A stretch of 64,000 nucleotides of DNA, from NCBI GenBank assembly GCA_001798185.1, contig MGRM01000005.1, positions 19,925-83,924 of the forward strand, given 5' to 3'. The notes below the pieces were generated by a model, which saw only the letters and a list, made by a program, of their open reading frames with translations, did not search any database and was not told the origin of the DNA. The translations under genes were made by a program, and so were the position numbers. The DNA is from Deltaproteobacteria bacterium RIFCSPHIGHO2_02_FULL_44_16 (lineage in GTDB: Bacteria; UBA10199; 2-02-FULL-44-16). Shown piece after piece: positions 33,222 to 52,715 of this stretch; positions within the stretch are counted from its first letter, which is position 1; the number at the start of each line of letters is the position of its first letter.

Positions 33222-33306
33222 GTGGTTGATTTAATTCCTTCATTCCCTTTCGTCAATCGGATGTCGACTAAAGAAAGATCGTCAAGAAAGATCAAAGAGA
33301 AGATTT
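33222..33306. promoter_or_regulatory. Divergent intergenic region, a putative bidirectional promoter.
   Basis: This 85-bp AT-rich non-coding gap lies between divergently transcribed genes. No clear sigma70 boxes were identified by eye. Confidence 0.25.
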
Positions 33307-34500: not shown

Positions 34501-34510
34501 AATAAACAAA

Positions 34511-38162: not shown

Positions 38163-38926
38163 TTATTCCAAAATGTATTGCTTTTGATTTTGATGGTGTC
38201 CTCTGCGATTCTTTAGATGAGACCATGGTTGTTTCCTATTATGCTTATGGTACGTTACATGAATTAAATCGGATACATCCTTATAGCTGTGATCATGTTC
38301 CTCAGGAACTCGCAAAAATATTTTTCCATTTCCGACCACTGGTACGAGTTGCAGAGGAATATTATCTTCTGTGGGCGCTCATCCTTGAACGCGCAGATCT
38401 CAAAGAGACAGAGCCGCTTTGTGAACAAGCTCAGCACATTCCGTTTCCAAAGCAACAATTTCGCGAGCTTTTTTTTCAAGAGAGGAAAAATTGGAGAGCC
38501 AACAATGAAGCATCATGGAAGAGGCATCTCTCACTTTATCCGGAAATGAAACTTACCTTAAAAATTTTAAAAGATCGTGAGACTCCTACTTTTATTGTTT
38601 CATCTAAAGATGAAGCCGCGATACGTCAAATTCTTTCCTTGCATGATGTTTCATGGCGAGCTGAAGATATTTTTGGTGCCGAAAAAAACCTTGATAAGGA
38701 TCGACTTTTTCAGTTGTTATTGAAAGTCAAACAGCTTTCTTCTTCTGAACTTTTTTTTCTTGATGATAATTTAGTGAATCTTCGCTTGGCAAAGCGTATT
38801 GGCATACAGGGAGCAATGGCAGCGTGGGGTTATAATTTTAAACACGAACAGAAAATAGCCCTCGATGAGGGATTTGAAATTTTTCAACTTAAAGACATCC
38901 ACACACGTATTCATTATGTTTCATGA
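38159..38926 (+). CDS. HAD superfamily hydrolase.
   Basis: IAFDFDGVLCDS is HAD motif I (DxDG). It overlaps the upstream gene in an ATGA junction. Confidence 0.65.
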   Translation: MIIPKCIAFDFDGVLCDSLDETMVVSYYAYGTLHELNRIHPYSCDHVPQELAKIFFHFRPLVRVAEEYYLLWALILERADLKETEPLCEQAQHIPFPKQQFRELFFQERKNWRANNEASWKRHLSLYPEMKLTLKILKDRETPTFIVSSKDEAAIRQILSLHDVSWRAEDIFGAEKNLDKDRLFQLLLKVKQLSSSELFFLDDNLVNLRLAKRIGIQGAMAAWGYNFKHEQKIALDEGFEIFQLKDIHTRIHYVS

Positions 38927-39638
38927 ATTGTCATTAAAACAGTATAGTCTTCTCAATTCTCATTACCGTATGATAGAGATAAATAATGTATTGTATCTTG
39001 AAAAAAAGATTACTCTTCATCCCTCATGGGGAAGACCTCATGTTGAAGCGCTTTTTGAGCTCACGCTCACCTATATTGAACAATTGCAGAAAGCGAATAT
39101 TTATTTTCCTGCTGTCAAAACTGCAACTAGAGGAGAAAATTATTTTCTCTTTTTGTGTGAATATAAAGGAATCAATGGGGTTCAGTATATAGAGGAGTAT
39201 GGGTTTCCCATGTTTCTTGCTCCAGGTGGCTTTTTGAATCAAATGTTTGAAATCATTCGTCAAGCGCAACATCAAAAAATTTCTCTCGATCCCCATATCA
39301 AAAATTTTGTCTTTGATGGAGAAAAAGTTTGGTATGTTGATTTTTCCCCGCCGTGGGGAAAGGAATATTATCAGTTACGTTTTTCAGTTGCTTCAGGTGA
39401 AGAAAAAAAAATTCTTCGTTCCTTTTTTTCCTGTTTTGAACCAAAACAACTAGGGTATCATGCAGCAAGTGATCTTCTCAAAACTGACTCTTCATCTCTT
39501 GCGATGATGCCGAAAATCTATGATGCATTGCATAAGCGAGGTATGGTCACGAGTTTGTATGAATATTTTCTGGAAGAGGGAAGCAGAATTCGTGAGGCTG
39601 AAGCAACTCGCGAGATGAAGGACCTTTTCCTTTTATAA
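38916..39638 (+). CDS. Putative kinase with a protein-kinase-like fold (APH/choline-kinase family).
   Basis: DPHIKNFVFDGEKVWYVDF resembles an HxDxxxxN catalytic loop followed by a DFG-like IDF motif. Confidence 0.4.
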   Translation: MFHELSLKQYSLLNSHYRMIEINNVLYLEKKITLHPSWGRPHVEALFELTLTYIEQLQKANIYFPAVKTATRGENYFLFLCEYKGINGVQYIEEYGFPMFLAPGGFLNQMFEIIRQAQHQKISLDPHIKNFVFDGEKVWYVDFSPPWGKEYYQLRFSVASGEEKKILRSFFSCFEPKQLGYHAASDLLKTDSSSLAMMPKIYDALHKRGMVTSLYEYFLEEGSRIREAEATREMKDLFLL

Positions 39639-39666
39639 TAAGTTTTACCTTGATAGGAGATTTTTT

Positions 39667-40563
39667 ATGAAGAGACGGCTGCAATTATTACTGTATTCAA
39701 TGCGTTCGCAACTTGCACATTTTCCAGGTATGTTTGCTTTACTGAAGATTTTCATGCTGTTTTTACCCAAAAATTTGAAAGCGAATTATTATGGCGTAAC
39801 CATGTATATCGATTCTCGAGATCTTCGCTCAATGAAGGAAGCTTTTTTAAAATCTCCTTATGAAAACAAAATGCATGAAACTTTTAACAATGTTCTTAAA
39901 GCAGGTATGTCAGTTGTTGATATAGGTGCACATATTGGATTGTTTTCGCTTATTGCAGGTCAAAAAGTTGGAGCAGAAGGGCATGTGTATGCTTTTGAAC
40001 CCATGCCCAGATGTTATGAATTACTGCAAAAGAACATTCAACTTTATAATCTCAATAACGTGGAAGCAATTCAATCCATTGTGACGAATAAACAAGGGAA
40101 AACGGAATTGTGGATGGATAAATATTATTCGATTCTGGGTTCGCTTCATAAAGACAATCTTATGAATAAGGGAGAAAAAGTTGAAGTGGATGCTATAACC
40201 CTTGATCATTTTTTTCTCGGCACAGATAGTCATGAGCGTCGTATAGATATTATTAAAATGAATATTCAGGGTGCTGAAGGGTTAGTGATTGATGGGGCAA
40301 AGCAATTACTTCGCTCAAAAGGACCAACCATATTTATGGAGTTTTGGCCTTTTGGCTTAAAAAAAATGGGGAGTGATCCAGAGCAACTCTTCGATACGTT
40401 AACGGGCTATGGGTATCAGGTTTATAGGATCCATATGGATGATGCCAGTTTAAAACCGATGAAGAAAAGTGACATTTTCCCCCTCTCTGATTTTTATATG
40501 AAAAAATCAGTAGCAATGTATTTGCTGTGGCAAATGCCCAGAACAAATGAGTTGTCTCTATGA
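39667..40563 (+). CDS. FkbM family methyltransferase.
   Basis: VVDIGAHIGLFSLIAG...VYAFEPMPRCYELLQKN is the FkbM (Methyltransf_21) signature. Confidence 0.7.
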   Translation: MKRRLQLLLYSMRSQLAHFPGMFALLKIFMLFLPKNLKANYYGVTMYIDSRDLRSMKEAFLKSPYENKMHETFNNVLKAGMSVVDIGAHIGLFSLIAGQKVGAEGHVYAFEPMPRCYELLQKNIQLYNLNNVEAIQSIVTNKQGKTELWMDKYYSILGSLHKDNLMNKGEKVEVDAITLDHFFLGTDSHERRIDIIKMNIQGAEGLVIDGAKQLLRSKGPTIFMEFWPFGLKKMGSDPEQLFDTLTGYGYQVYRIHMDDASLKPMKKSDIFPLSDFYMKKSVAMYLLWQMPRTNELSL

Positions 40564-41441
40564 AAACTCTCTTTCGTTTTTTAAAACGTGCTGGTTTGGG
40601 TCGGGTTCCTGGTTTGCTGCAGCTCTATAATTTTCTCTATAGTATTTTTATTCGATTCTCTCGCATCGACCCTATTGTTCATCTTGACGGACAAAAAATT
40701 CTGGTAAGCAAAGAGGATTTGTCTACTTCAAGAAGATTATTGGTATATGGTGAACATGTTCAAGAAACAGCAGAATTTCTCAAAAATATTGTGAAAGAGG
40801 GAATGATCGTAGCTGATATCGGGGCGAACATTGGTTATTATACATTACTTTCAGCAAAGCGCGTTGGGACGAAGGGGCGTGTTTATGCTTTTGAGCCGGA
40901 TCCCCGTTGTGTTGAGATTTTACAAAAAAATATTTTGCTCAACGCTTATTCAAACATTTCTATTGTGCAGAATGCTGTTTCTCATACAACTGGAAAGACA
41001 ATTCCAGTCTATCTCGATAAACATCATTTTTCTCTCACATCTTTAGCAAAAGAGAATGTAACTACCACTGAAGAAAAAATCGAAATTACCACTATCTCTT
41101 TGGACGATTTTTTTGAGAAACAAATTGGCAATAGTCGTTTGGATTTTGTAAAGATGAATATTCAAGGGGCTGAAGGTTATGTCATTGAAGGTGCGAAAAA
41201 ATTGTTTCAAAAGAATAACCTCACCTTGATTACGGAATTTTGGCCGGAGGGTCTGGAAAAGTGCGGGACGGATCCACAAAAACTTTTGTTGATGTTGAAA
41301 GAGTTAGGTTATACGTGGAGACCTGTTGGTCATAATGAGGAAAAGAAGAAATCATATTCCATTGGTGAGATTATTTCTCTGGGAAACAAGTTTATTCACC
41401 AAAAAAAGAAATCTCTCCATCTTGTTGTTTCAAGAGTTTAA
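40560..41441 (+). CDS. FkbM family methyltransferase, tandem paralog.
   Basis: VADIGANIGYYTLLSAK...VYAFEPDPRCVEILQKN is collinear with the upstream paralog. It overlaps the upstream gene in an ATGA junction. Confidence 0.7.
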   Translation: MKTLFRFLKRAGLGRVPGLLQLYNFLYSIFIRFSRIDPIVHLDGQKILVSKEDLSTSRRLLVYGEHVQETAEFLKNIVKEGMIVADIGANIGYYTLLSAKRVGTKGRVYAFEPDPRCVEILQKNILLNAYSNISIVQNAVSHTTGKTIPVYLDKHHFSLTSLAKENVTTTEEKIEITTISLDDFFEKQIGNSRLDFVKMNIQGAEGYVIEGAKKLFQKNNLTLITEFWPEGLEKCGTDPQKLLLMLKELGYTWRPVGHNEEKKKSYSIGEIISLGNKFIHQKKKSLHLVVSRV

Positions 41442-41444
41442 TTT

Positions 41445-42173
41445 ATGAAAACATTGATTCTGGCTGCAGGTCTTGGCTCACGGCTTCAGCATAAAACACA
41501 ACATTCACCTAAAGCTTTAGTTCGCATCCATGACAAGCCAATTTTGGCCTATCAGTTAGATGCCTTGTCAGCGTGTGGCATGAAGGATATCGGTATTGTT
41601 CTTGGATATCAGGGAGAAATGATCAAAGAGTATATCGAGCAAAATTATTCTTTTCTTCATACGACTTTTTTTTGGAATCATGACTATGCTTCTTCCAATA
41701 GTTCCTATTCCTTTTGGATGGCAAAAGATTGGATTGCGGATGAAAGTTATATTCACTTGAATTGCGATATTCTTTTTTCACCCACATTGTTACAGAAACT
41801 TCTGAAGCACAGGCATGAAAACGTCATTGCGATAAAACGAGATGTGTCGCTGGGTGGACGCCTTGAACATGTCGTGGTGAAGGGTGAGCAGATCCAAAAA
41901 ATGTCGATCGAATATGATCCGCAAGCGACAGGAAAAGCCTTTGGCCTGGCGAAGCTTGGAACTTTGAGTCACGTTATTTTACAGAAGCTAATTGCAACGT
42001 ATCTTGCTCAAGGGGATAAAAATCAAAATTACTTTGGGATGATCCGTCATGCCATTCATCAAAAAATTCCTTATTATGTACTCGATGCCACGCATGAAGA
42101 ACTTTTTGAAGTGAACACCTTAGAAGATTACAAAAAAGTAGAAGAGTATGTAGCGCACAAAAAACTATGTTGA
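41445..42173 (+). CDS. Nucleotidyltransferase (LicC/IspD-like NTP-transferase for a phospho-alcohol or sugar phosphate).
   Basis: MKTLILAAGLGSRL...PKALV is a nucleotidyltransferase G-rich loop. The protein is 242 aa. Confidence 0.65.
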   Translation: MKTLILAAGLGSRLQHKTQHSPKALVRIHDKPILAYQLDALSACGMKDIGIVLGYQGEMIKEYIEQNYSFLHTTFFWNHDYASSNSSYSFWMAKDWIADESYIHLNCDILFSPTLLQKLLKHRHENVIAIKRDVSLGGRLEHVVVKGEQIQKMSIEYDPQATGKAFGLAKLGTLSHVILQKLIATYLAQGDKNQNYFGMIRHAIHQKIPYYVLDATHEELFEVNTLEDYKKVEEYVAHKKLC

Positions 42174-42928
42174 AATCATTTCTTCTTGCCCTTTTTCCCT
42201 TTCGATTTGCACTTCTTCTCTTTTTTTTCGGTCTTCTCTTTTTATTTGTCCGAAAAGAGCGTTTGGCAAAGAGAGTGCTTGTGGTGAGTTTTTGTATTCT
42301 TTTTTTGGGGAGTCTTTCTGGTTTTTCTGGGCGGCTTCTTTTCAATCTTGAATCGCGGTATCCTTCATTTGATGTTTTGATCCAAAAGGAAAATCTGGAA
42401 AATATAATGTACATTGTTGTCTTAGGAGATGGACATGTTGAAGAAGTTTCCTGGCCATTGACGAGTCAACTCAGCGATGAAATGCTGAAACGAACAGTTG
42501 AAGGGATGCGACTGCATCTGCAGTTGCCGCATACCAAAATTGTGGTTTCAGGTGGTAAGCTTACGAAAAAAAGTGAGGCTGAGGTGATGCAAGAGTTGCT
42601 CGTTTCACTCGGGATTTCAGCAGACGACATTATCACCGAAAGAAAATCTGCAAATACCTACGAACAAGCACTTTTTTTGAAGCCGATCTTACGGCAGCAG
42701 CGGTTTATTCTGGTGACTTCCGCCAGACATATGCCTCGTGCCATGAAACTTTTTCAAGAACATGACCTCCAGCCTCTGGCAGCGCCAACTGCACATTATG
42801 TTTTGAGTACCAAAAGTTTTATTCCCAGCTTAAGACATTTTCAAAAACTTGAAATTGCCCTCTATGAATATTTAGGATTGATAAAAAATGCTTTTTTGCA
42901 AAGAACCGAACATGAATCTTCCAACTGA
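42167..42928 (+). CDS. DUF218 (YdcF/ElyC) family protein.
   Basis: An N-terminal transmembrane helix is followed by a VVLGDGH...SGG...LVTSARHMPRA core. Confidence 0.55.
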   Translation: MLKSFLLALFPFRFALLLFFFGLLFLFVRKERLAKRVLVVSFCILFLGSLSGFSGRLLFNLESRYPSFDVLIQKENLENIMYIVVLGDGHVEEVSWPLTSQLSDEMLKRTVEGMRLHLQLPHTKIVVSGGKLTKKSEAEVMQELLVSLGISADDIITERKSANTYEQALFLKPILRQQRFILVTSARHMPRAMKLFQEHDLQPLAAPTAHYVLSTKSFIPSLRHFQKLEIALYEYLGLIKNAFLQRTEHESSN

Positions 42929-43973
42929 AAAAATAAGCGTTGTTATTCCTTGTTACAATGAAGAAAGATACATTGGAAAGTGTCTTGATTCGATTCTTGC
43001 GAATGATTATCCACATCACTCTCTTGAAATTATCGTTGTGGATGGCCGGAGTGATGATAGAACAAGAGATATTGTTCATCTCTATCAAGAAAAATATTCT
43101 TTTCTTCGTTTATTAGAGAACCCGGAACGTTTTACCACCGCGGCGCTGAATAAAGGTATTCAAGCTGCATCGGGCGAGATCATTTTAAGAATAGATGCCC
43201 ATTCTGTCTATCCCACCGAGTACATTTCAAAATGTGTGAAATATTTGCGACAGTATGATGCAAGTAATGTAGGAGGTGTTTGGCGTATTCGTCCTGGAGA
43301 AGAAACTTTTATCGCGAAAGCCATTGCTCTTGCTCTGGCGCATCCCTTTGGTATTGGGCTTGCTCGATATCGAACCGTCAAAGTGTCGCATTCTCCGCAA
43401 GAGGTGGATACCGTTCCCTATGGCTGTTTTCCGAAAAAGATTTTTGAACACATCGGTTATTTTAGAGAAGATCTGCCTCGTTGGAAAGGGAGGTGCAATG
43501 AAGACATTGATTTTAATAAACGGATTCGAGAGAGTGGAGGAAAAATTTTTCTCATTCCGGAAATTATTGTCTATTACTATGCACGTGGGACTTTAAAGTC
43601 TTTTTTACAACATAATTTTAATAATGGAGTTCTTGTCACCATGCCACTCGGAAATAACGATATGGATTTTTCGTATCGACATCTGGTTCCGGGGTTTTTT
43701 GTTCTGAGCTTTATGACATTGATACCTCTCTCTTTTATAAGTCCTTTTTTTCGTACTCTTTTTTTCTTTCCTATGGCACTTTATCTCAGCCTCAGTCTTT
43801 ATTTTTCCTTTAAAAGAATGTTCGTCTACAAAAATCCTCTTTATTTCTTTTTCATGCCCGTTGTCTTTTTTGTTCTTCATCTCAGTTATGGCTTGGGCTC
43901 TCTCTACGGTCTTTTAAAAGCATTTCGCATGAAATGGCAAAATGCGGTGAAGTTGGAGAAACCTCTTTCATGA
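42912..43973 (+). CDS. GT2 family glycosyltransferase with a C-terminal membrane domain.
   Basis: ISVVIPCYNEERYI...IIVVDGRSDD is the GT2 signature. C-terminal hydrophobic helices are present. Confidence 0.75.
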   Translation: MNLPTEKISVVIPCYNEERYIGKCLDSILANDYPHHSLEIIVVDGRSDDRTRDIVHLYQEKYSFLRLLENPERFTTAALNKGIQAASGEIILRIDAHSVYPTEYISKCVKYLRQYDASNVGGVWRIRPGEETFIAKAIALALAHPFGIGLARYRTVKVSHSPQEVDTVPYGCFPKKIFEHIGYFREDLPRWKGRCNEDIDFNKRIRESGGKIFLIPEIIVYYYARGTLKSFLQHNFNNGVLVTMPLGNNDMDFSYRHLVPGFFVLSFMTLIPLSFISPFFRTLFFFPMALYLSLSLYFSFKRMFVYKNPLYFFFMPVVFFVLHLSYGLGSLYGLLKAFRMKWQNAVKLEKPLS

Positions 43974-45433
43974 CCATTTCTTCAAAACAGCTTATTCGAA
44001 ATATTACGAGCATTACATGCGCCTATGTAGGACGGAAAGCTCTGACGTTTATCTATTTTACGCTCATTGCACGATATAGCGGTGTTGAAGTGACAGGCGC
44101 TTACTTTTTACTCGTTTCTTTTGCAGCTGTCATCACATCATTTTTGGATTTTGGTTTTTCAAACACTCTTATTCGCGAAGCTTCAAAAGCTCCCGAAAAA
44201 CTCGCCTTCTATTTAAATAATATTCTAACAGCAAAAATTTTTCTCAGTGCTCTCGCCATTGTTGCGGGGACTTTTATTTTGATTTTTTTCGACTATAGTT
44301 TGCGCATAAAAATTTTGGTTGCGATGCTCGTTGCGACCATGATTTTCGAAACATTTGCGGAAACTTTTTTTTCATGTGCGCGTGTGCGTCATCACATGAA
44401 AACAGAAGCTCAAACACTTGTTATTGGACAATTTATTACGCTCATGGTGGGAGGACTCTCTCTTTGGCTTTATCCAAGTCTTTATTTGTTGATCTTGGCG
44501 CTTCTTTTAAATCAGATGTGTCATTTTTTCCGTTCATACTATCTGGTAGTGCATACCCTGTCTCTTCCATTGCAACTTTCATTTGATAAAACCACGTTCA
44601 TCTCTTTAACAAAAATTGCAATTCCGTTTCATATCGCGGTTTTATTTGAACAAATTCTTTATGCGGATGCTTTTATTCTGAAATATTTAACCGAAGATAG
44701 AATAGTTGGTCTTTTTGGAGTTTCCCACGCTCTTATCAACGCCTTTCGTTTTATTCCCATTGTTCTTGGCTTAGCTATTTTCCCGGCATTAAGTTCCTTC
44801 CATGCTTTTTCACCTTCAAAATTTAAAAAACTTTTTCAAGGTTTCTATACAGTTCTTTTAAGTTTAGTGGCGCCATTGGCCATTTTTCTTCTTCTCTTTT
44901 CTTCAGAGGCGATCGATCTTCTCTTTGGAGAAAAATATATTGAGTCAAGTAGAACGCTTCAAATTTTAGCACTTTCACTTCTCCCGCTTTTTTTAAGCTA
45001 TCCTTTTAGTAAATTACTGGATGCTTGTAACAAACAACTTCTGAATGCAACGTTGAAGGGAATATCACTTGTTATTCACCTCACCTTGACTGTTGTTCTT
45101 ATTCCTTCCTTTGGTGCTGTCGGGATCGCTCTTTCCTGTCTTTTGAGTTATACATTTCTTTTCCTTGCCTCCATGCATTATGGATCAAAAATGCTTCCTC
45201 ATGTTTATTCATTTTGTTTCAAGAATATGTTGTATGTCATGTTAGCATCCTGTTTTATGGGGTATTGTCTTTTTATTTTAAAACTGTTTCTGCATCCTTT
45301 TGTTCTCATTCCTTTTGGATTCTTCCTTTATATATCTTCTCTCATTCTTTTAAGAGGAATGACCCGAAGCGGTTTTAATAAAGATGAAGCTTATAGGGAA
45401 TGGTTATTACTTGCGAAACGTGCTTTGCGATAA
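43970..45433 (+). CDS. Wzx-type flippase / polysaccharide biosynthesis protein (MOP superfamily), second copy.
   Basis: The 488-aa protein has about 12 transmembrane helices and an N-terminus typical of Wzx. It overlaps the upstream gene in an ATGA junction. Confidence 0.6.
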   Translation: MTISSKQLIRNITSITCAYVGRKALTFIYFTLIARYSGVEVTGAYFLLVSFAAVITSFLDFGFSNTLIREASKAPEKLAFYLNNILTAKIFLSALAIVAGTFILIFFDYSLRIKILVAMLVATMIFETFAETFFSCARVRHHMKTEAQTLVIGQFITLMVGGLSLWLYPSLYLLILALLLNQMCHFFRSYYLVVHTLSLPLQLSFDKTTFISLTKIAIPFHIAVLFEQILYADAFILKYLTEDRIVGLFGVSHALINAFRFIPIVLGLAIFPALSSFHAFSPSKFKKLFQGFYTVLLSLVAPLAIFLLLFSSEAIDLLFGEKYIESSRTLQILALSLLPLFLSYPFSKLLDACNKQLLNATLKGISLVIHLTLTVVLIPSFGAVGIALSCLLSYTFLFLASMHYGSKMLPHVYSFCFKNMLYVMLASCFMGYCLFILKLFLHPFVLIPFGFFLYISSLILLRGMTRSGFNKDEAYREWLLLAKRALR

Positions 45434-45436
45434 AAT

Positions 45437-46183
45437 ATGAACGATAACATTTCCCAACCTGTTATTTTGATTACCGGAGCAAGCGGCGGCATTGGAGCTG
45501 GTGTTGCTGATTCTTTATTTGAACGTGGATATACACGGATTGCATGTCAGCATCGTTCGTCTTCGGATCATCTTGGACGCATTATCCAAAAATATACTTT
45601 GGATCCCAAACAACATTTATTTCAAGGTGATCTGACAAATGAAGCGTATGTTGAGGAACTCGAAAAAAAAATAAACGAACAGTTTGGTGCCGTCGATGTG
45701 CTCATTAATTTAGCAGGAGGCTCAACAAACGGGCTTTCCTGGAAGCTATCGCTCCAAGAATTTCACGATGTTATGGCGATGAATCTTACGACTACTTTTC
45801 TGACGTGCCGACAATTTATTCCTCGCATGCGAGAAAAAGGATTTGGAAGAATTATAAACACCTCCTCTGTTGTTGCTTTCAAAGGGACAACAGGAGCGGC
45901 GCATTACAGCGCAGCAAAAGCAGCCGTTGTGGGATTTACCAAATCGCTTTCTTTGGAACTCGCGAATAAAAACATCACTGCGAATACGCTTGCTCTGGGA
46001 TATTTTGATGTTGGCATTATCAATCACGTTCCTGTTGAGATGCAGCGGAAGATCCAGCAAGACATTCCCTTGAAAAGATTTGGTACGGTCAAAGAGATTG
46101 GTCGGCTTGTTGAATATCTCTTAAACGATGAGTCTGCATATATTACCGGTCAAATCTTTCATATTAATGGTGGGCTGTATTGA
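45437..46183 (+). CDS. SDR family oxidoreductase (FabG-like 3-oxoacyl reductase type).
   Basis: ITGASGGIG and the YSAAKAAV catalytic YxxxK motif are present. Confidence 0.75.
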   Translation: MNDNISQPVILITGASGGIGAGVADSLFERGYTRIACQHRSSSDHLGRIIQKYTLDPKQHLFQGDLTNEAYVEELEKKINEQFGAVDVLINLAGGSTNGLSWKLSLQEFHDVMAMNLTTTFLTCRQFIPRMREKGFGRIINTSSVVAFKGTTGAAHYSAAKAAVVGFTKSLSLELANKNITANTLALGYFDVGIINHVPVEMQRKIQQDIPLKRFGTVKEIGRLVEYLLNDESAYITGQIFHINGGLY

Positions 46184-46326
46184 AAAGTCCGCAGGAGGCG
46201 ATTGTCGAGCGGCGTCTTCAGACACTGGAAACGAAGCCTCAATATCCAGTAGGCTGAAGCACAGGCAAAAATCCGGCGTGTGAGGATTTTTGCCGTAGTG
46301 AGACAACGCCTCCGAGAGACTTTTCA
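46184..46326. repeat. Structured repeat of about 143 bp with terminal inverted repeats, family 2, copy A.
   Basis: About 90% identical to the reverse complement of 52546-52688. The ends aaaagtc..ggaggcg / cgcctcc..gactttt are inverted repeats. An internal hairpin is ggcaaaaatcc-N9-ggatttttgcc. Confidence 0.75.
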
Positions 46327-46334
46327 ATTTATAG

Positions 46335-47423
46335 ATGAAGATCACATTCGATCAATTCAACCGACAAAAAAATTTACACGAGCAGCGAAAACTTTATGCT
46401 CACTGCTTTCCCGAAAGCCATTTGTCCGCAGAAGAGAGCGAAGCTCATTATCAATGGCAATTTGCAAGTTTTCCTCATCTTCATCAAGGTAGTGCTAGCT
46501 ATGAGTATGCAGCTTTCGATAATGATGAAATGGTTGGCTACTATGCAGCGCTTCCTTATCGATATAACATCGAAGGGGTACTTTGTACGTGTGGCATGGT
46601 CTGCGATGTCATGACCCATCCGCAGAAGAGAGGACAGGGCATTTTTAAACAACTGGGAATGTTTGCGACAGAAGATCTAAAAAGAGCTCAGCTCCATTTT
46701 ACCTCTGGGTATCCTATTCGCAAGGATGTGATGCCCGGTCATCTCAGTGTCGGATGGAAAGTCGGTTTTAAATTGCCGATGTTTGTCTCTTTTTTGGCAT
46801 CGCGTGCGATGCTTCAAAAAATTCATCTTTCTCTTGTGGCTCCATTTGCTGATGCGTTGTTGATTTTTTTCAATGCTCTTTTGAGTTTTTATTGGCGCAA
46901 GAAAATTCCCTTCTATGATGTGGAGTCCAGAGAAGCTTCCGAAACTTCCTTACAATCTCTTCTCCCCTTTATTGCTCTTTGGGAAAAAGAGCAGAATTTT
47001 TTTTTGATCAAAGATTTTGAGTTTTTGAGGTGGAGACTGGGAAAAAAAAATGCTCATTACAAAATATTTTTTCTTCAAAAAAGTGATGACATTGTCGGTG
47101 CTGCGCTGGTTCGATATACAAATTTTTACGGTATTCCCGCGGCAGTCATTCTCGATTGCATGGTTCTTCGGGATCATCTTCAAGCGTCACCACGGATGTT
47201 TTCGGAGATAAAGAAAGCGGCGTTTCAAGACAGATGTGAAGCTGTGGTGGTCATGATGAGTGGTCACTGGGGAAAGAGGTATCAACTGCGCAAGGCAGGT
47301 TTTTTGAGATCGCCCTATGTGTTTCAATTCATTTCAAAAAAATTGAATTATTCCATGGAAGAAAAAAATTTTCTCGATGAAAAAAACTGGCATCTGATGT
47401 GGATCGATTCTGATCGGTTTTAG
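46335..47423 (+). CDS. GNAT-fold (FemAB-like) acyltransferase.
   Basis: The central VGYYAALPY...RGQGIFKQL acyl-CoA-binding-like region is present. The protein is 362 aa, about twice GNAT length, as in FemAB-type enzymes. Confidence 0.45.
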   Translation: MKITFDQFNRQKNLHEQRKLYAHCFPESHLSAEESEAHYQWQFASFPHLHQGSASYEYAAFDNDEMVGYYAALPYRYNIEGVLCTCGMVCDVMTHPQKRGQGIFKQLGMFATEDLKRAQLHFTSGYPIRKDVMPGHLSVGWKVGFKLPMFVSFLASRAMLQKIHLSLVAPFADALLIFFNALLSFYWRKKIPFYDVESREASETSLQSLLPFIALWEKEQNFFLIKDFEFLRWRLGKKNAHYKIFFLQKSDDIVGAALVRYTNFYGIPAAVILDCMVLRDHLQASPRMFSEIKKAAFQDRCEAVVVMMSGHWGKRYQLRKAGFLRSPYVFQFISKKLNYSMEEKNFLDEKNWHLMWIDSDRF

Positions 47424-47425
47424 TG

Positions 47426-47452
47426 TCGTCATTCCCGCGCAGGCGGGAACAG
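47426..47452. repeat. Half-copy of the family 1 palindromic repeat.
   Basis: gtcattcccgc-gcag-gcgggaa matches the right-arm hairpin of family 1. It lies in the 38-bp gap between convergent genes. Confidence 0.5.
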
Positions 47453-47461
47453 GGATAACAT

Positions 47462-48340
47462 TCAAGAATGTGATTGATACTTTTTAACATATTCTTCCAT
47501 TGTGAGAAATTCGACATTGTGTTTTGCAATCCAGGAAAAGAGTTCGTGATTCATGATGTGAATTTTTTCTCCAAGATAACGCCTTCCCATCCAGACACGA
47601 AGCGGAAATCCTCGAATAAGCCATGTGCGATGGGGAATGAAAAGTTTCCAGGAAAAAGGAATGCGCTTTTCATAAACAAACTCGTGGGGATGGACCAGAT
47701 ACACAATCGGTTTTCCTGTCAGTTTTGATTCAAGATAAAAAAGTTCAAATAAACATTTCATAAAGGTGACACCAAAAATACGAAGCGTTGTGGAAACAAA
47801 AGGGATCATAAAGGCAGAGACTGGAATTTCAAAAAGTTTCATCTCTCCCTTTCGGTAAGGAGATGTTTTGCTGGGATGATAAGGGTTTCGAGGAGCAATA
47901 AGCCAGCCAGGATTTATGAGGTTTGAAGAGAGAAAATCGAGTCGCTGGGAACACACGGAAGAATCAACACTGTAGCCGAGCTCTTCGAGGACCGACAGGG
48001 TTGAGCTTGAAGTCTTCACGCGAGGAGATCGAAAGGAACGAATGGGTTTGCCGAGAAGTTTTTCAAGACGCTCTGTCGCTTCCCCAAGTATCTGTTGTGC
48101 CGCTTCTTTTGGAAGTCGATGAAACTCTTCTGTATCGTCATGATAAAGGCCATGACATCCGATTTCGTGTCCGTCCTGAGCAATTTTCTGAAGCGTTTTG
48201 TGTTCAGCGTAAGAAGCTGTATAGAAAAAAGTAGCCTTAATTCCATTTGCTTTTGTAAGCTCAAGCGCATAATCAATGGCCTCCTCGAGCTTCTCGCAGG
48301 GATCCACGTCAAAGGTGATAAGCACGGGAACTTTTTTCAT
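47462..48340 (-). CDS. Polysaccharide deacetylase (NodB homology, CE4 family).
   Basis: FDVDPCE...ATFFYTASYAEH...HEIGCHGLYHDD are NodB motifs. Confidence 0.75.
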   Translation of the reverse strand: MKKVPVLITFDVDPCEKLEEAIDYALELTKANGIKATFFYTASYAEHKTLQKIAQDGHEIGCHGLYHDDTEEFHRLPKEAAQQILGEATERLEKLLGKPIRSFRSPRVKTSSSTLSVLEELGYSVDSSVCSQRLDFLSSNLINPGWLIAPRNPYHPSKTSPYRKGEMKLFEIPVSAFMIPFVSTTLRIFGVTFMKCLFELFYLESKLTGKPIVYLVHPHEFVYEKRIPFSWKLFIPHRTWLIRGFPLRVWMGRRYLGEKIHIMNHELFSWIAKHNVEFLTMEEYVKKYQSHS

Positions 48341-48380
48341 AGAGATTGTTTTTCAGAAATAACTGCGGAGCACAAGTGCT
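48341..48380. promoter_or_regulatory. Divergent intergenic region, a putative bidirectional promoter.
   Basis: This 40-bp gap lies between the divergently oriented deacetylase (-) and methyltransferase (+) genes. Confidence 0.2.
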
Positions 48381-49223
48381 ATGAATACGGCGTTGCAAAA
48401 TGATTATTCCTTGATCACCGAACGAGCGGGCGCAAACGTCACACAGGAACAACTTTTGCGTGTCTATCAACGTTATGTGTTTGCGGCGCAGTATTGTCAT
48501 GGCAAAGATGTTCTTGAAGCAGCATGCGGAAGCGGTGTGGGACTTGGATTGTTAGGAGATGTAGCACATTCTGTGACAGCTCTTGATTGTGAACGAAAAA
48601 ATTTATTTCATGCAGAAACGACGTATCAGCAAGATTCCAAAGTTCGTATTCTGCATGGAGATGCGCAGGCAATTCCATTTCCAGACAAAAGTTTTGATGT
48701 CGTTATTCTCTACGAAGCAATTTATTATTTATCTCATCCAGAAAAGTTTTTTGCCGAATGTAAGCGGGTCTTACGTTCGGGAGGAAGGCTTATCATCGGA
48801 AGCGCCAACCGTGAGTGGGCTGATTTTAATCCGAGTATTTACAGTACCCGTTATTTTTCTGCATCTGAACTCTATGAGATGATGGAAAAAGAAGGTTTTC
48901 AGACAAAAATTTATAAAGGTTTTCCGATTGAAGAGAGCCAGGGAGGAAAACAAAAAGTACTCTCTCTCATGAAGCGAGTTGCAGTGAAGCTGCATTGCAT
49001 TCCAAAATCGATGAAGTATAAAAAATTTCTCAAACGCATTTTTGTCGGTCAACTTGTTCCGCTGCCGCCGCGATTGACGCAGGGAAGTGTGGAATATAGA
49101 GAGCCAACGCCACTTTCTTTGGGAAAAGAGACGCAGTTCAAGGTGATCTATGCTGTTGGTCACTATCATCCTGAGCCCTTCGGCCTTGCTCAGGACAGGC
49201 TTGTCGAAGGACGAGGAGCGTAA
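48381..49223 (+). CDS. Class I SAM-dependent methyltransferase.
   Basis: VLEAACGSGVGL (motif I) and LRSGGRLIIGS are present. Confidence 0.7.
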   Translation: MNTALQNDYSLITERAGANVTQEQLLRVYQRYVFAAQYCHGKDVLEAACGSGVGLGLLGDVAHSVTALDCERKNLFHAETTYQQDSKVRILHGDAQAIPFPDKSFDVVILYEAIYYLSHPEKFFAECKRVLRSGGRLIIGSANREWADFNPSIYSTRYFSASELYEMMEKEGFQTKIYKGFPIEESQGGKQKVLSLMKRVAVKLHCIPKSMKYKKFLKRIFVGQLVPLPPRLTQGSVEYREPTPLSLGKETQFKVIYAVGHYHPEPFGLAQDRLVEGRGA

Positions 49224-49781
49224 ATGGGCTGCCGTGTCCTGACAACAGATATTCCTGATGTCAAAATCATTCTTCCGGAGAAATTTGGAGATCATCGCGG
49301 TTTTTTTTCGGAAACGTACCATAAGAGAGAGTTCGCAACAGCGGGCATTCATCTGGAATTTGTTCAAGATAATCATGCGCTCAGTGGTCCCAAAGGAACC
49401 GTACGAGGGCTTCATTTTCAAACTCCTCCCTATGAAATGTGGAAACTGGTGCGCGTGGTGAGAGGTTCTATTTTTGATGTTGCGGTCGACATTCGCAAGT
49501 ATTCTCCCACGTATGGAAAGCATGTGGCAGTGGAGCTCAGCGCTGAAAAATGGAATCAACTTCTGGTTCCTGCTGGTTTTGCGCACGGCTATTGTACGCT
49601 CGAACCCAATACGGAAGTCGTCTATAAAGTGACGAATTATTATTCTCAAGAGCATGACAAAGGTATTTTATGGAATGACGAAGCTCTCGGGATTCGCTGG
49701 CCAGTTGAAGGGAGCGCAGCTCTTTCGGAAAAAGATAAAAAGTGGCCAAGGCTTTCCGCTTCAGGAGTATATTTCTCATGA
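49224..49781 (+). CDS. rfbC: dTDP-4-dehydrorhamnose 3,5-epimerase.
   Basis: RGLHFQ...KLVRVVRGSIFDVAVDIRKYSPTYGK is the RmlC signature. Confidence 0.9.
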   Translation: MGCRVLTTDIPDVKIILPEKFGDHRGFFSETYHKREFATAGIHLEFVQDNHALSGPKGTVRGLHFQTPPYEMWKLVRVVRGSIFDVAVDIRKYSPTYGKHVAVELSAEKWNQLLVPAGFAHGYCTLEPNTEVVYKVTNYYSQEHDKGILWNDEALGIRWPVEGSAALSEKDKKWPRLSASGVYFS

Positions 49782-50794
49782 AACTTCTTGTGACAGGTGG
49801 TCTCGGATTTATCGGTTCAAACTTCATTCGATATCAGCTGGAACACGATCCGAGCTGTTCGATCGTGAACTTAGATTGCCAGACCTATTCGGGAAATCCG
49901 GAAAACTTGCGCGACATTGAAAACAATCCGCGATATCGATGGGTCAAAGGAGATATTGTTGATGCTGAGGTTGTAGGGCCCCTCATGCAGGAGGCAGAGT
50001 GTGTGGTACATTTTGCGGCAGAGTCTCATGTCGATCGCTCTATTCTTGACTCATCTGCCTTTCTTCGGACCAATGTTCAAGGGACGCACGTTCTGCTTGA
50101 GGCAGCGAAAAAATATGGCATCGAACTTTTTGTGCATGTGAGCACTGATGAAGTGTATGGTTCTGTTGAAAAAGGGGAGTCGGTTGAGAGTGATCCTTTG
50201 GAGCCTAACAGTCCCTATGCCGCCTCAAAAGCTGCGTCAGATCTTCTCGTACGCTCCTATCATGTCACGCATAAGCTTCCGACGATTATTACCAGATGTT
50301 CAAATAATTTTGGTCCCTATCAATTTCCCGAAAAAGCGCTTCCACTTTTAATGACGAACGCGCTCGAAGAAAAACCATTTCCTCTTTATGGGAGCGGAGA
50401 AAATGTTCGCGATTGGATCTATGTCTTAGATCATGCCAAGGCCATTTCGTTTTTGATTCGCAAAGGAAATGTGGGAGAAATTTATAATATTGGCGGTACG
50501 TATTCTGCGCAAAATAAAATTCTCTTCACGAAAATTTTGGAACTGATGCAAAAACCAGCTTCGCTGCTTCACATCGTTGCAGATCGACCGGGCCATGATA
50601 AACGTTATGCACTGAACTGCGATAAGTTGAAACGTCTTGGCTGGAGTCCGGAAACACCTTTTGAAGCAGCATTAGAGCAAACGATCAATTGGTATTGCGA
50701 AAGAACTGATTGGTGGCAACCCTTGAAATATGGGACTGATTTTCAGCATTACTACACATCGCAATATGCTTCCCGCGCGATGAAAACCTCATGA
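49778..50794 (+). CDS. rfbB: dTDP-glucose 4,6-dehydratase.
   Basis: MKLLVTGGLGFIGSNF, the YSASKAASD catalytic motif and HVSTDEVYG are present. Confidence 0.9.
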   Translation: MKLLVTGGLGFIGSNFIRYQLEHDPSCSIVNLDCQTYSGNPENLRDIENNPRYRWVKGDIVDAEVVGPLMQEAECVVHFAAESHVDRSILDSSAFLRTNVQGTHVLLEAAKKYGIELFVHVSTDEVYGSVEKGESVESDPLEPNSPYAASKAASDLLVRSYHVTHKLPTIITRCSNNFGPYQFPEKALPLLMTNALEEKPFPLYGSGENVRDWIYVLDHAKAISFLIRKGNVGEIYNIGGTYSAQNKILFTKILELMQKPASLLHIVADRPGHDKRYALNCDKLKRLGWSPETPFEAALEQTINWYCERTDWWQPLKYGTDFQHYYTSQYASRAMKTS

Positions 50795-51657
50795 AGATTC
50801 TTCTTCTGGGTGCTTCAGGACAGCTTGGGTTTGATCTCTGTCGTTTGTTTCAGAACAACGAATGTTTCGATGTTTCCCCTCTAACACGAACAGATCTTGA
50901 TCTCATGCATATTGCCCGCATACCGGAGGTCTTGCATCAATATCAGTTCGATATTCTCATCAACTGTACTGCGTATAATCGTGTCGATGATGCACAATCT
51001 CATTCGCAACTTGCATATGCGATCAATACCTATGCTGTGGAAGCACTTGCCAAATACTGTGCAGAAGTTCGAGCAAAGTTCGTCCACGTCAGTTCCGATT
51101 TTGTTTTTAACGGTGAGAAAACTTCTCCTTATACAGAGACAGATCTGGTTATGCCGCTGTCTGTCTATGGAACTTCAAAGCTCTTGGGAGAACTCTTTGC
51201 GCAGCAATCACATAACGATGTGCTGGTGATTCGTACGGCGTCTCTTTTTGGCGAAGTCGGTTCCTCGGGAAAAGGGGGGAACTGCGTGGAAGCTTTTGTC
51301 CACAAGGCTCGTCGCGAAGAAGAGCTGAGAGTCATTAACGATATCACGATGTCGCCGACGTCGACGGCAGATCTTGCGCAGGCCATTATTTCTCTCTTGC
51401 AACAGAAAGCTCCTTCTGGAATTTATCATGTGGTCAATGACGGAGTGGTGACGTGGTATGCATTTGCTTCTGAAATCATGAACCAAATGCGTCTTTCGGC
51501 ACGTATGACTCCGGTTTCACATGCTGAGTTTCCGATGAAGGCTTTGCGGCCTCGGTATAGTGTTCTTGACACCGCAAAGACGGCCAATGTCATTGGAAAG
51601 ATGCCAACATGGCAAGAAGCGCTGCATCGTTATCTTCAGCAGAAGAGGTATATATAA
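50791..51657 (+). CDS. rfbD: dTDP-4-dehydrorhamnose reductase.
   Basis: [13 protein letters not shown] and the YGTSKLLGE motif are present with RmlD length. Confidence 0.85.
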
Positions 51658-52532
51658 TGAAGGGGATTATACTCGCAGGTGGAGCAGGTTCTCGTTTGTA
51701 TCCTCTCACTCATGTGGTGAGTAAGCAGCTTTTACCGGTGTATGATAAACCAATGATTTATTATCCTCTTTCATCGTTGATGCTCGCAGGGATTCAAGAC
51801 ATTCTGATTATTTCAACGCCGCAGGATCTTCCGCTTTATCAGCGGCTGCTTCAAGATGGACAACAGTGGGGCATTCGTTTGAGCTATGCGGAACAACCTT
51901 TTCCCGGTGGTCTTGCTCAAGCTTTTCTGATTGGGAAATCTTTTATCGGTTCGGATGCCTGTGCTCTCGTGCTCGGCGATAACATTTTTTTCGGAGAGGG
52001 TTTTACAAAGCAGCTTGAGCGAGCCGCGCTTAAAAAGAAGGGGGCAACGGTTTTTGGATATTGGGTAAACGACCCCGAACGATACGGCGTTGCTGTTTTT
52101 GATAAGACTGGAAAAGTCATTGAAATTGAGGAAAAGCCGGCACGACCAAAGTCGCATTATGCAATCACGGGTCTCTATTTTTACGACCATCGTGTAGTCG
52201 ATGTCGCATCACGCTTACAACCCTCTGCACGCGGGGAACTCGAGATTACAGATGTGAATAATTTTTATCTTCGCGAACAGCAATTAGAAGTGGAAAAACT
52301 CGGTCGAGGGATTGCGTGGCTTGATACGGGCACACATGATTCTCTCGTGGAAGCTTCAAATTTTATTGCGACGATTGAAAAACGCCAAGGACTCAAAGTG
52401 GCGTGTCTTGAAGAGATCGCTTGGAGAAAGAGATGGATTTCGAAAGAAGGTCTCGAAGGCCTCATCGAAAGAATGTCGCACAATACGTATCGAGAATATT
52501 TAGTGACGATGCTTGAACATGAAGCAGAATGA
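51657..52532 (+). CDS. rfbA: Glucose-1-phosphate thymidylyltransferase.
   Basis: [18 protein letters not shown]...[18 protein letters not shown] is the RmlA signature. Confidence 0.9.
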
Positions 52533-52545
52533 TGACATTGTTGAA

Positions 52546-52688
52546 AAAAGTCTCTCGGAGGCCGCTTCTCGCTACGGCAAAAATCCTCACATGCCGGATT
52601 TTTGCCTGCGCTTCAGCCTGCCGTATATTGAGGCTTCGTTTCCGGCGTCTGAAGACGCCGCTCGAATTCGGCCTCCTGCGGCCTTTTT
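52546..52688. repeat. Structured repeat of about 143 bp with terminal inverted repeats, family 2, copy B, in inverted orientation.
   Basis: Its reverse complement aligns with 46184-46326 at about 90% identity, including the ggcaaaaatcc..ggatttttgcc hairpin. Confidence 0.75.
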
Positions 52689-52715
52689 TCAATGCACAAC
52701 AAGGAGAATGTTATG

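What the first reader, a model, noticed from the sequence alone, without database searches (positions are those of the whole stretch)
46184..52688. Two inverted copies of a ~143-bp structured repeat flank a 6.2-kb cassette containing rfbCBDA
46184-46326 and the reverse complement of 52546-52688 are about 90% identical over their full length. They share terminal inverted repeats (aaaagtc..ggaggcg) and an internal long hairpin (ggcaaaaatcc-N9-ggatttttgcc). The six-frame track even shows matching pseudo-peptides: SEALSHYGKNPHTPDFCLCFSL... versus SEAASRYGKNPHMPDFCLRFSL.... The copies sit exactly in the intergenic gaps after an SDR gene and after rfbA. They bracket the GNAT acyltransferase, CE4 deacetylase, a methyltransferase and the four dTDP-rhamnose genes. 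Inverted repeats in this arrangement could mediate inversion of the cassette by homologous recombination. They could be MITE-like footprints marking a horizontally acquired module, or a small structured RNA or transcriptional attenuator used twice.
Basis: seen in the sequence. Interest (0 to 1): 0.7.

Follow-up and report, generated by a model that had tools for sequence, protein, structure and literature searches.

The report
Dispersed intergenic hairpin repeat, two copies
The two inverted 143-base sequences are real, but they are two of at least ten scattered copies of a small non-coding hairpin-forming repeat in an uncultivated groundwater bacterium, an ordinary kind of selfish or semi-domesticated DNA, and they do not mark the edges of a special rhamnose gene cassette.

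Summary
Observation confirmed. Window 46179-46328 (+) and 52541-52692 (-) are 87-89% identical inverted copies, and they are the only long inverted pair in the 64 kb.

They are not a matched pair. I recovered eight more loci of the same element, in the same Rifle-aquifer population, next to unrelated genes and in both orientations.

Every copy has a core of exactly 134 nt plus a 7-12 bp terminal stem. Each folds on either strand into a Y-shaped three-way junction of about -60 kcal/mol. Among nine copies, 13 of 48 pairs show compensatory changes (0/500 shuffles reach this).

A is closest to a copy on another contig (97%), and B is the most divergent copy. The rhamnose segment has the window's ordinary G+C. 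No contig shows it inverted. A and B share at most 20 identical bases in a row.

No target-site duplication is seen. There is no Rfam match and no hit in viral contigs. Assemblies break inside the element, and one scaffold joins copy A to the flank of copy I.

Verdict: a new family of a known kind, a MITE/REPIN/ERIC-like intergenic palindromic repeat. Mobilisation through a folded single-strand intermediate and an mRNA stem-loop effect are inferred, not shown. Interest is low to moderate.

The parts
46179..46328 (+). Copy A of the repeat, whole element (150 nt): terminal stem ATTGAAAA/TTTTCAAT plus the 134-nt core at 46187-46320. It fills the gap between the SDR gene and the GNAT gene (ATG at 46335). 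The SDR stop codon TGA (46181-46183) lies inside the left terminal stem.
   Evidence: (189 bits, E 1.4e-48)
46194..46313 (+). Copy A, outer closing helix: 46194-46210 pairs with 46298-46313 (GGAGGCG.TTGTC..GC / GT..GACAACGCCTCC). It encloses the two internal hairpins.
   Evidence: helix 2: 14 pairs, 4 with changes on both sides, 96.8% of cells paired
46212..46262 (+). Copy A, internal hairpin 1 (GCG.CTTCAG.CACTG ... CAGT.G.CTGAAGCAC). Most of its loop sequence is the same in all copies.
   Evidence: helix 3: 14 pairs, 2 compensatory, 99.2% paired
46264..46294 (+). Copy A, internal hairpin 2: GGCAAAAATCC-N9-GGATTTTTGCC, an 11-bp stem.
   Evidence: helix 4: 11 pairs, 99.0% paired
52541..52692 (-). 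Copy B of the repeat, whole element (152 nt), opposite orientation: terminal stem TTGAAAAAA/TTTTTTCAA plus the 134-nt core at 52550-52683. It lies between the rmlA stop (52532) and the likely degT start (52713). It is the most divergent of the ten copies.
   Evidence: (186 bits, E 9.1e-48)
52608..52658 (-). Copy B, internal hairpin 1. Its inner stem is GCCG/CGGC where copy A has ACTG/CAGT, which amounts to two compensatory pair changes.
52576..52606 (-). Copy B, internal hairpin 2 (same 11-bp stem as in copy A).

Best explanation
The two sequences are independent members of a dispersed, non-coding, non-autonomous intergenic repeat family. The host is an uncultivated groundwater bacterium, a population labelled 'Deltaproteobacteria bacterium RIFCSPLOWO2_02_FULL_44_10' in NCBI. 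Each element is about 150 nt: a core of exactly 134 nt closed by a 7-12 bp A/T-rich terminal stem. On either strand it folds into a three-way junction made of the terminal stem, an outer GGAGGC/GCCTCC helix and two different internal hairpins.

Shown: there are at least ten loci, in both orientations, in all classes of intergenic gap. The structure is kept by compensatory changes. There is no target-site duplication. Insertion has extended two host proteins. Metagenome assemblies break or mis-join at the element.

Inferred: the family spread by transposition in trans, through a folded single-stranded intermediate recognised by its structure and by its conserved internal loops, in the manner of REPIN/RAYT or IS200/IS605. 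A classical cut-and-paste DDE transposase recognising the termini fits less well. The reasons are that the termini are the most variable part, that they stay mutually complementary within each copy, and that no direct repeats flank the element.

Also inferred: for the host, each copy places a stem-loop of about -60 kcal/mol in a polycistronic transcript whichever way round it sits. It probably acts as a 3'-exonuclease barrier, a partial terminator or a translation decoupler between the flanking genes, as described for REP/BIME, ERIC and Correia elements. The 6.2-kb rhamnose segment is simply what lies between two independent insertions in one long polysaccharide gene cluster.
For: Copies elsewhere were found by searching the element's pseudo-peptides against predicted proteins. 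The contigs were then fetched.

nhmmer and the covariance model give full-length hits of 141-194 bits at these loci: L036 3325-3472, L036 6178-6320, L038 10685-10828, L046 5613-5759, L051 4346-4491, L053 4690-4836, L048 10099-10246 (NCBI GCA_001799065.1) and L054 459-623.

All cores measured are exactly 134 nt, at 84-97% identity.

Structure: the minimum free energy is -61.3 and -60.3 kcal/mol for the two strands of copy A, z about -6.2. On nine copies 97.2% of cells are paired, and 13 of 48 pairs have changes on both sides. No shuffle of 500 reaches the observed values, and slid controls give 37-45% paired.

The terminal stems differ between copies but stay complementary, and they show symmetric length changes. 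Examples are A4/T4, A5/T5 and A6/T6 runs, AAAAC/GTTTT, GTGAAAA/TTTTCAC and AATATCGAAAT/ATTTCGATATT. They partly follow the core phylogeny: I with J, E with G, A with C.

No consistent direct repeat flanks the element.

A PyrE-like protein (261 aa against about 228 aa in 120 homologues) and a UDPGP protein both read into the element.

Contigs end inside the element at element positions 61, 90 and 137. Scaffold L003 joins the body of copy A to the right flank of copy I, across a stretch of 59 identical bases.

The family is narrowly distributed: about ten pseudo-ORF clusters among 1.84 billion representative proteins, and none in viral contigs.

The REPIN paper reports that compensatory changes across the hairpin are common in REPINs (PMC3116915). 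A review reports that small repeats often extend the 3' ends of host genes (PMC3184786).
Against: No transposase or RAYT gene was found, and I could not search the whole genome. No empty site was recovered, because the nearest homologues of the flanking PyrE-like protein are only 56-64% identical. Mobility is therefore inferred from distribution, not demonstrated.

Only about 155 kb of this organism's DNA was examined, and most loci were found through the element itself, so the copy number per genome is unknown.

The strongly conserved unpaired loops and the fixed core length could equally reflect a function selected by the host.

The element is not built from two inverted copies of one short REP unit, so it is not a REPIN in the strict sense.

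G-U versus A-C counts (18 against 6 cells, mostly from one column pair) do not identify a folded strand.
Confidence: 0.75

Rival explanations
1. A host-selected cis-acting RNA element, not mobile DNA. In this reading it is a stabiliser, an RNase processing site, an attenuator or a ribosome-termination structure that has been recruited repeatedly between genes in operons.
For: Structure is supported by covariation. Several loop and junction sequences are invariant in all nine aligned copies. The core length is fixed at 134 nt. Seven of the first nine loci are between co-directional genes, and the five checked closely begin 0-10 nt after a stop codon. Stable structures just after stop codons are reported to govern re-initiation in operons (abstract of PMC7518266, listed).
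Against: Copies lie sense (A, D, E) and antisense (B, C, H, I) to transcription, once between convergent genes (G) and once between divergent gene starts (J). Two copies altered the C-termini of host proteins. Sequences 84-97% identical sit beside unrelated genes whose own nearest homologues are at most 64% identical. There is no Rfam match even at E up to 10. Assemblies break at the element as they do at a repeat.
Confidence: 0.13
2. A classical MITE: an internally deleted insertion sequence moved by a DDE transposase that binds its terminal inverted repeats.
For: It is about 150 nt with inverted termini, has no coding capacity, is multi-copy and folds into a long stem-loop. All of these are listed features of MITEs (PMC3184786). 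An IS5-family transposase gene lies between two copies on L036.
Against: No target-site duplication appears at any boundary definition in nine copies. The termini are the most variable part of the element, and they vary in step on both sides. The inverted repeats of the IS5-like element on L036 (TATAGGGCACCTCTAAAAAC) are unrelated to the element's ends.
Confidence: 0.1
3. One reading: a matched inverted pair that delimits a horizontally acquired rhamnose cassette and can invert it by recombination.
For: The two copies are inverted and 6.2 kb apart, and they bracket a functionally coherent set of genes. G+C rises near copy A.
Against: A and B are not sister copies: 86.6% against 97% for A and C. 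G+C does not fall again after copy B. It is the 28-46 kb region upstream of copy A that is low in G+C. All contigs spanning the junctions have one orientation: L001, L002, L004, L008, L034 and L035. The longest identical run between the copies is 20 nt. From my own knowledge, that is below the 23-27 bp minimum for efficient RecA recombination measured in E. coli. The element also occurs singly at eight other loci.
Confidence: 0.03
4. A family of independently transcribed small RNA genes, or recombination sites of the integron attC type.
For: The fold is stable and conserved. The size lies within the attC range.
Against: There is no room for a promoter, since the elements fill gaps of 150-180 nt from stop codon to the next ribosome-binding site. 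There is no array, no uniform orientation and no integrase nearby. The conserved parts are internal, not terminal as in attC. There is no Rfam hit.
Confidence: 0.02

Closest known systems
REPINs (REP doublets forming hairpins) mobilised by RAYT transposases, as described in Pseudomonas fluorescens SBW25 (PMC3116915)
   Same: Both are short, non-coding, intergenic repeats with many copies. Both fold as a long hairpin in single-stranded form. Compensatory changes across the hairpin are common. The REPIN paper mentions no target-site duplication. Neither has a transposase of its own.
   Different: A REPIN is two inverted copies of one REP unit, with invariant 16-mers at its two ends and a variable spacer. 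Here the ends are the variable part. The conserved centre holds two unlike hairpins, giving a three-way junction rather than a simple hairpin. No RAYT gene was found or could be looked for. GTAG occurs 3' of hairpin 2, not at the 5' foot of a REP palindrome.
ERIC / IRU elements of enterobacteria (about 127-bp imperfect palindromes in transcribed intergenic regions; from my own knowledge)
   Same: Similar size. Both are imperfect palindromes found in either orientation in short transcribed gaps within operons. Copy number is moderate, and no transposase is known.
   Different: The sequences are unrelated and the host lineage is different. Here the core has a strictly fixed length, the fold is branched, and the terminal stems vary in step on both sides.
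Correia elements (NEMIS) of Neisseria, and classical bacterial MITEs (PMC3184786)
   Same: All are 100-160 nt with inverted termini, sit next to or overlap gene ends, and fold into stable stem-loops in mRNA. They can extend host reading frames.
   Different: [quoted passage not shown] Neither is the case here.
REP/BIME elements of E. coli as intercistronic mRNA stabilisers (from my own knowledge)
   Same: Both are stable stem-loops between genes of one operon, just after a stop codon. This is the basis for the inferred effect on the host.
   Different: REPs are about 35 nt and are arranged in mosaics. This element is a single unit of 150 nt. No expression data exist for it.

Membership tests
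Bacterial MITE (DDE-mobilised) | Small (under about 400 bp), non-coding, multi-copy | tested here: met
   148-156 nt. Ten loci. The only open frames are pseudo-peptides with no family.
Bacterial MITE (DDE-mobilised) | Terminal inverted repeats | tested here: met
   7-11 bp of perfect terminal complementarity in seven of nine copies, continuing into the GGAGGC/GCCTCC helix. However, the termini are the least conserved part.
Bacterial MITE (DDE-mobilised) | Flanking target-site duplication (direct repeats) | tested here: not met
   The best direct repeats are 0-3 nt, at inconsistent offsets among 81 boundary combinations per copy.
Bacterial MITE (DDE-mobilised) | A parent insertion sequence with the same ends in the genome | tested here: inconclusive
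   The only transposase seen in about 155 kb, an IS5-like gene on L036, has unrelated ends. The whole genome could not be searched.
REPIN / REP-RAYT system | Hairpin-forming unit kept by compensatory changes | tested here: met
   13 of 48 pairs have changes on both sides, 97.2% of cells are paired, and 0/500 shuffles reach this.
REPIN / REP-RAYT system | Made of two inverted copies of one short REP palindrome, with conserved ends | tested here: not met
   The two internal hairpins have different sequences and sizes (51 and 31 nt). The ends are variable and the centre is conserved.
REPIN / REP-RAYT system | A RAYT (Y1 HUH transposase) gene flanked by the repeats in the same genome | not testable with these tools
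   The single genome-contig scan returned only chance 19-mer matches. No whole-genome access was available.
IS200/IS605-derived element (PATE) | Insertion 3' of a fixed tetra- or pentanucleotide, with no inverted termini | tested here: not met
   No conserved flank lies outside the terminal stems, and the termini are inverted repeats.
Integron attC site | Arrays in one orientation beside an integrase, with conserved terminal core sites | tested here: not met
   The copies are single, in both orientations, among housekeeping genes, and their termini are variable.
Any curated RNA family (Rfam 15) | Match to a covariance model | tested here: not met
   No match at gathering score in the window, and none at E up to 10 around copy A.

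The most novel reading that the evidence does not exclude
The two ends change together within each copy: A/T runs of 4, 5 or 6 on both sides, an extra C matched by an extra G, and a wholly different 11-bp end in copy D that is still perfectly self-complementary. The element also has no target-site duplication and a core of invariant length. This could mean that one terminus is copied from the other each time the element moves or replicates, through fold-back priming or template switching on a hairpin intermediate. That would be a mobilisation route not described for bacterial small repeats, possibly served by an unrecognised enzyme.
Probability: 0.07. Interest if true: 0.7.

Novelty: new member of a known kind. 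Interest (0 to 1): 0.28.

Why it matters
For this window, the result removes a tempting but wrong reading: the rhamnose genes are not a mobile or invertible cassette.

More generally, it documents a previously undescribed small-repeat family in an uncultivated groundwater lineage. The family has practical consequences:
- It fragments and mis-joins metagenome assemblies (scaffold L003).
- It creates spurious 'hypothetical protein' annotations (OGQ23346.1 and OGQ45999.1).
- It lengthens real proteins.

Its branched fold, fixed core length, ends that vary in step and lack of target duplications make it a modestly interesting case for how such repeats spread. The kind of element is well known.

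Tried and rejected
1. Rfam, at gathering scores over the whole window and at E up to 10 around copy A: nothing.
2. Exact-pattern scan of GTDB species genomes with the invariant 19-mer: 18 hits, all matching only the 19-21-mer, in unrelated high-G+C genomes.
3. Scan of JGI metagenome contigs with the loop 19-mer: 5 chance hits. The collection evidently lacks the Rifle contigs that do carry the element.
4. Two viral-contig scans: 0 hits.
5. P0003, P0004 and P0129 contain element pseudo-peptides but have no contig on record. P0003 and P0004 come from read sets SRR3990167 and SRR3989338.
6. P0128 (1513 aa, 20 matched stretches) is an unrelated repetitive protein and a chance match.
7. Empty-site test through homologues of the PyrE-like protein: the nearest relatives are only 56-64% identical. 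Only the protein C-terminus could be compared, not the DNA of an unoccupied site.
8. Hypothesis that the element inserts into a pre-existing small hairpin family TGAAAA...TTTTCA: only six such sequences in 155 kb, and none looks like an empty site. Rejected.
9. Diversity-generating retroelement template/variable repeat pair: rejected from reading the alignments and gene tables. The differences are not adenine-specific and no reverse transcriptase was seen in the gene tables.
10. The consensus promoter and terminator scan gave nothing informative at the elements.
11. Strand assignment from G-U versus A-C mismatches: inconclusive.


Full report
**1. The observation**

They align without internal gaps. 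A repeat search of the whole 64-kb window finds a single inverted pair of at least 40 nt. Its arms are 46183-46324 and 52546-52687, 142 nt long and 87% complementary. BLASTN gives 88.7-88.8% identity.

Two conserved motifs each occur exactly twice in the window, against at most 0.01 expected by chance. A covariance-model scan with all filters off finds these two copies at 189 and 186 bits. The next unrelated candidate scores 13.5 bits.

Pfam confirms the gene context. The order is a Wzx-type flippase, an SDR, copy A, a GNAT, a CE4 deacetylase on the minus strand, a methyltransferase, RmlC, RmlB, RmlD, RmlA, copy B and a DegT aminotransferase.

**2. Anatomy**

With the terminal stems included, copy A spans 46179-46328 and copy B spans 52541-52692 (coordinates read off). 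The left stem of copy A contains the TGA stop codon of the SDR gene. Copy B begins 8 nt after the rmlA stop. It ends about 20 nt before an ATG that has its own AAGGAGA ribosome-binding site.

Both strands of both copies fold into the same branched shape. It has a terminal A/T-rich stem, a GGAGGC/GCCTCC helix and two unlike internal hairpins. The energies are -57 to -61 kcal/mol and z is -4 to -6 against shuffles. The elements have 0.50-0.55 G+C, in a window of about 0.43.

There is no Rfam family, even at E up to 10.

**3. The element is dispersed**

Looking up the SDR protein in public assemblies returned 18 contigs from several samples. Five of those shown stop inside the element, at element positions 61, 90 and 137. 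This is the usual signature of a repeat in short-read assembly. One scaffold (L003) continues from the element into a different neighbourhood.

Direct pattern scans of the genome and metagenome collections returned only chance matches to the 19-mers.

What worked was treating the element's open frames as pseudo-proteins. Searching them against predicted proteins gave small 'hypothetical proteins' and two real proteins whose C-termini run into the element. Fetching their contigs, then scanning with nhmmer and the covariance model, gave eight further loci:

| Copy | Locus and coordinates | Strand | Neighbours |
|---|---|---|---|
| C | L036 3325-3472 | - | after queF |
| E | L036 6178-6320 | - | between nicX and ridA |
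| D | L038 10685-10828 | + | between a pyrE-like gene and pyrF |
| G | L046 5613-5759 | + | between convergent UDPGP and FTCD genes |
| H | L051 4346-4491 | - | between two plus-strand genes without Pfam matches |
| I | L053 4690-4836 | + | between thrS and a thioredoxin gene |
| J | L048 10099-10246 | + | between divergent genes; NCBI GCA_001799065.1 |
| K | L054 459-623 | - | beside a deoxynucleoside kinase gene |

The samples are Rifle aquifer metagenomes. NCBI names the organism 'Deltaproteobacteria bacterium RIFCSPLOWO2_02_FULL_44_10'.

Relative to transcription, A, D and E are sense and B, C, H and I are antisense. G lies between convergent genes and J between divergent genes.

**4. A and B are not a pair**

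All cores measured are exactly 134 nt long. Core identities range from 84% to 97%. The nearest relative of A is C, on another contig (97.0%). B is the most divergent copy (84-89% to all others). A and B share 86.6%.

The bracketed DNA has 0.43-0.47 G+C, the same as the first 12 kb of the window and the DNA beyond copy B. The compositionally odd part is 28-46 kb, upstream of copy A, at 0.385-0.41.

The polysaccharide cluster continues past copy B, with DegT, a split transketolase and a sugar transferase.

Every contig that spans a junction has the window's orientation: L001, L002, L004 and L008 for copy A, and L001, L034 and L035 for copy B.

The longest identical run between A and B is 20 nt. 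From my own knowledge, that is below the length needed for efficient RecA recombination in E. coli.

By contrast, A and I share 59 identical bases. Scaffold L003 is exactly the body of copy A followed by the right flank of copy I. I cannot tell whether this is a mis-assembly or a real recombinant.

**5. Structure is maintained**

On five copies, 13 of 55 predicted pairs have changes on both sides.

On nine copies the figures are as follows:
- 97.2% of cells form standard pairs.
- 13 of 48 pairs have changes on both sides, in 31 cells.
- No shuffle of 500 reaches the observed values.
- Sliding the partners by 1-3 columns drops pairing to 37-45%, with 0-5 such pairs.

The tool warns that related sequences can exceed shuffles without any structure. 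Here, though, the slid controls, the per-helix counts and the very high pairing all agree.

The unpaired junction and the loop of hairpin 1 are among the best conserved parts. The termini are the least conserved.

**6. The ends**

The terminal stems differ between copies yet stay complementary within each copy:

| Copy | Left end / right end |
|---|---|
| A | ATTGAAAA / TTTTCAAT |
| C | TTGAAAAA / TTTTTCAA |
| B | TTGAAAAAA / TTTTTTCAA |
| I, J | (T)TGAAAAC / GTTTTCA(A) |
| G | GTGAAAA / TTTTCAC |
| D | AATATCGAAAT / ATTTCGATATT |

The end types partly follow the core phylogeny (I with J, E with G, A with C). The ends are therefore inherited with the element and not taken from the target.

No consistent direct repeat flanks the element at any boundary definition. 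A search for unoccupied small hairpins of the TGAAAA...TTTTCA type found nothing convincing.

Two explanations for ends that vary in step, both inferences, are:
- selection for a paired intermediate in the lineages that replicate;
- correction of one arm against the other by template switching or mismatch repair in the extruded hairpin.

**7. Effects on genes**

The PyrE-like protein P0005 is 261 aa. Most of its 120 best homologues are 226-229 aa and end where the element begins, so the element adds about 31-33 residues.

The UDPGP protein P0130 likewise ends in element-encoded residues, in the same frame.

Copy B itself is annotated in NCBI as a 65-aa hypothetical protein.

A review of small bacterial repeats describes such reading-frame fusions as common (PMC3184786).

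**8. Interpretation**

The best reading is a selfish or semi-domesticated intergenic palindromic repeat family, of the general kind that includes REPINs, ERIC, Correia elements and MITEs.

Three features argue against a classical DDE MITE: there is no target duplication, the ends are variable and the internal loops are conserved. They argue for recognition of a folded single strand, as in the REPIN/RAYT and IS200/IS605 systems. The REPIN paper reports that compensatory changes across the hairpin are common (PMC3116915).

The element is not a REPIN in the strict sense, because it is not built from two inverted copies of one REP. No transposase was identified and no empty site was recovered, so mobility is inferred.

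The likely consequence for the host is a very stable stem-loop in the transcript in either orientation, acting as a barrier, a partial terminator or a decoupler. This is drawn by analogy with REP/BIME and Correia elements and is untested.

**9. Distribution and novelty**

A full HMMER pass over 1.84 billion representative proteins gave eleven hits. One of them (P0128) is a chance match to an unrelated repetitive protein. Every hit whose DNA could be fetched came from a Rifle aquifer sample, and for three of them no DNA could be fetched. Viral contigs gave none.

The family therefore appears narrow and undescribed, but the kind is familiar. I rate it a new member of a known kind, of low to moderate interest. 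The one feature worth a specialist's second look is the way the ends vary in step.

Noticed in passing
L003 10745-11112 (ENA ERZ28563625, scaffold_2317), compared with window 46179-46328 and L053 4689-5058: This scaffold carries the SDR gene and the body of copy A, then continues into the right flank of copy I (thioredoxin side). The switch lies within a stretch of 59 bases identical in A and I. It is either a mis-assembly through the repeat or a real recombinant.
   Followed up: partly
L038 10001-10786 (P0005) and L046 4349-5716 (P0130): Two housekeeping proteins, a PyrE-like phosphoribosyltransferase and a UDP-glucose pyrophosphorylase family protein, have lost their native stop codon. They read about 31-37 residues into the repeat, in the same element frame (...RAASSDAGNEAS...RLKRRQKSGV).
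   Followed up: partly
window 52543-52690 (minus strand element); NCBI proteins OGQ23346.1 and OGQ45999.1: Copy B is annotated in two NCBI MAGs as a 65-aa 'hypothetical protein'. This is almost certainly a spurious gene call across the repeat.
   Followed up: yes
L036 4479-5765: An IS5-family insertion sequence (DUF772 plus DDE_Tnp_1, 345 aa) lies between repeat copies C and E. Its inverted ends are about 20 bp (TATAGGGCACCTCTAAAAAC) and are unrelated to the repeat's ends.
   Followed up: partly
window 28252-29674: Five copies of a coding repeat of about 49 nt (63-78% identical, spaced 246-459 nt). The first copy translates to a GDFDGDGYDD-like motif, so this is probably a protein with repeated calcium-binding or FG-GAP-like units.
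   Followed up: no
window 22794-23024 and 35158-35388: Two collinear segments 74-76% identical and 12,364 nt apart. The second lies in a gene called as a sulfatase on contig L001, so these are probably paralogous sulfatase genes.
   Followed up: no
window 28000-46000: G+C falls to 0.385-0.41 over about 18 kb upstream of copy A, which holds methyltransferases, a glycosyltransferase and the flippase. The rest of the window is at 0.43-0.47. This low-G+C block, not the rhamnose segment, is the compositionally unusual part.
   Followed up: partly
L038 7391-8036: Three tandem small genes (65-67 aa; one has a weak Frankia_peptide match) lie just before a 620-aa cNMP-binding protein. They may be precursor peptides.
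   Followed up: no
L054 1-168, compared with L055 603-770: Two contigs from different samples are identical from 290 nt outside repeat copy K onward, but differ completely beyond that point. This could be strain variation or another assembly break.
   Followed up: no
L046 5613-5759, compared with L047 1365-1511: The same locus (copy G) in two samples differs by one uncompensated G-to-T change in the 3' arm of hairpin 2. Copy G also has a C-to-A change that breaks a pair in that stem, so individual copies are decaying.
   Followed up: partly
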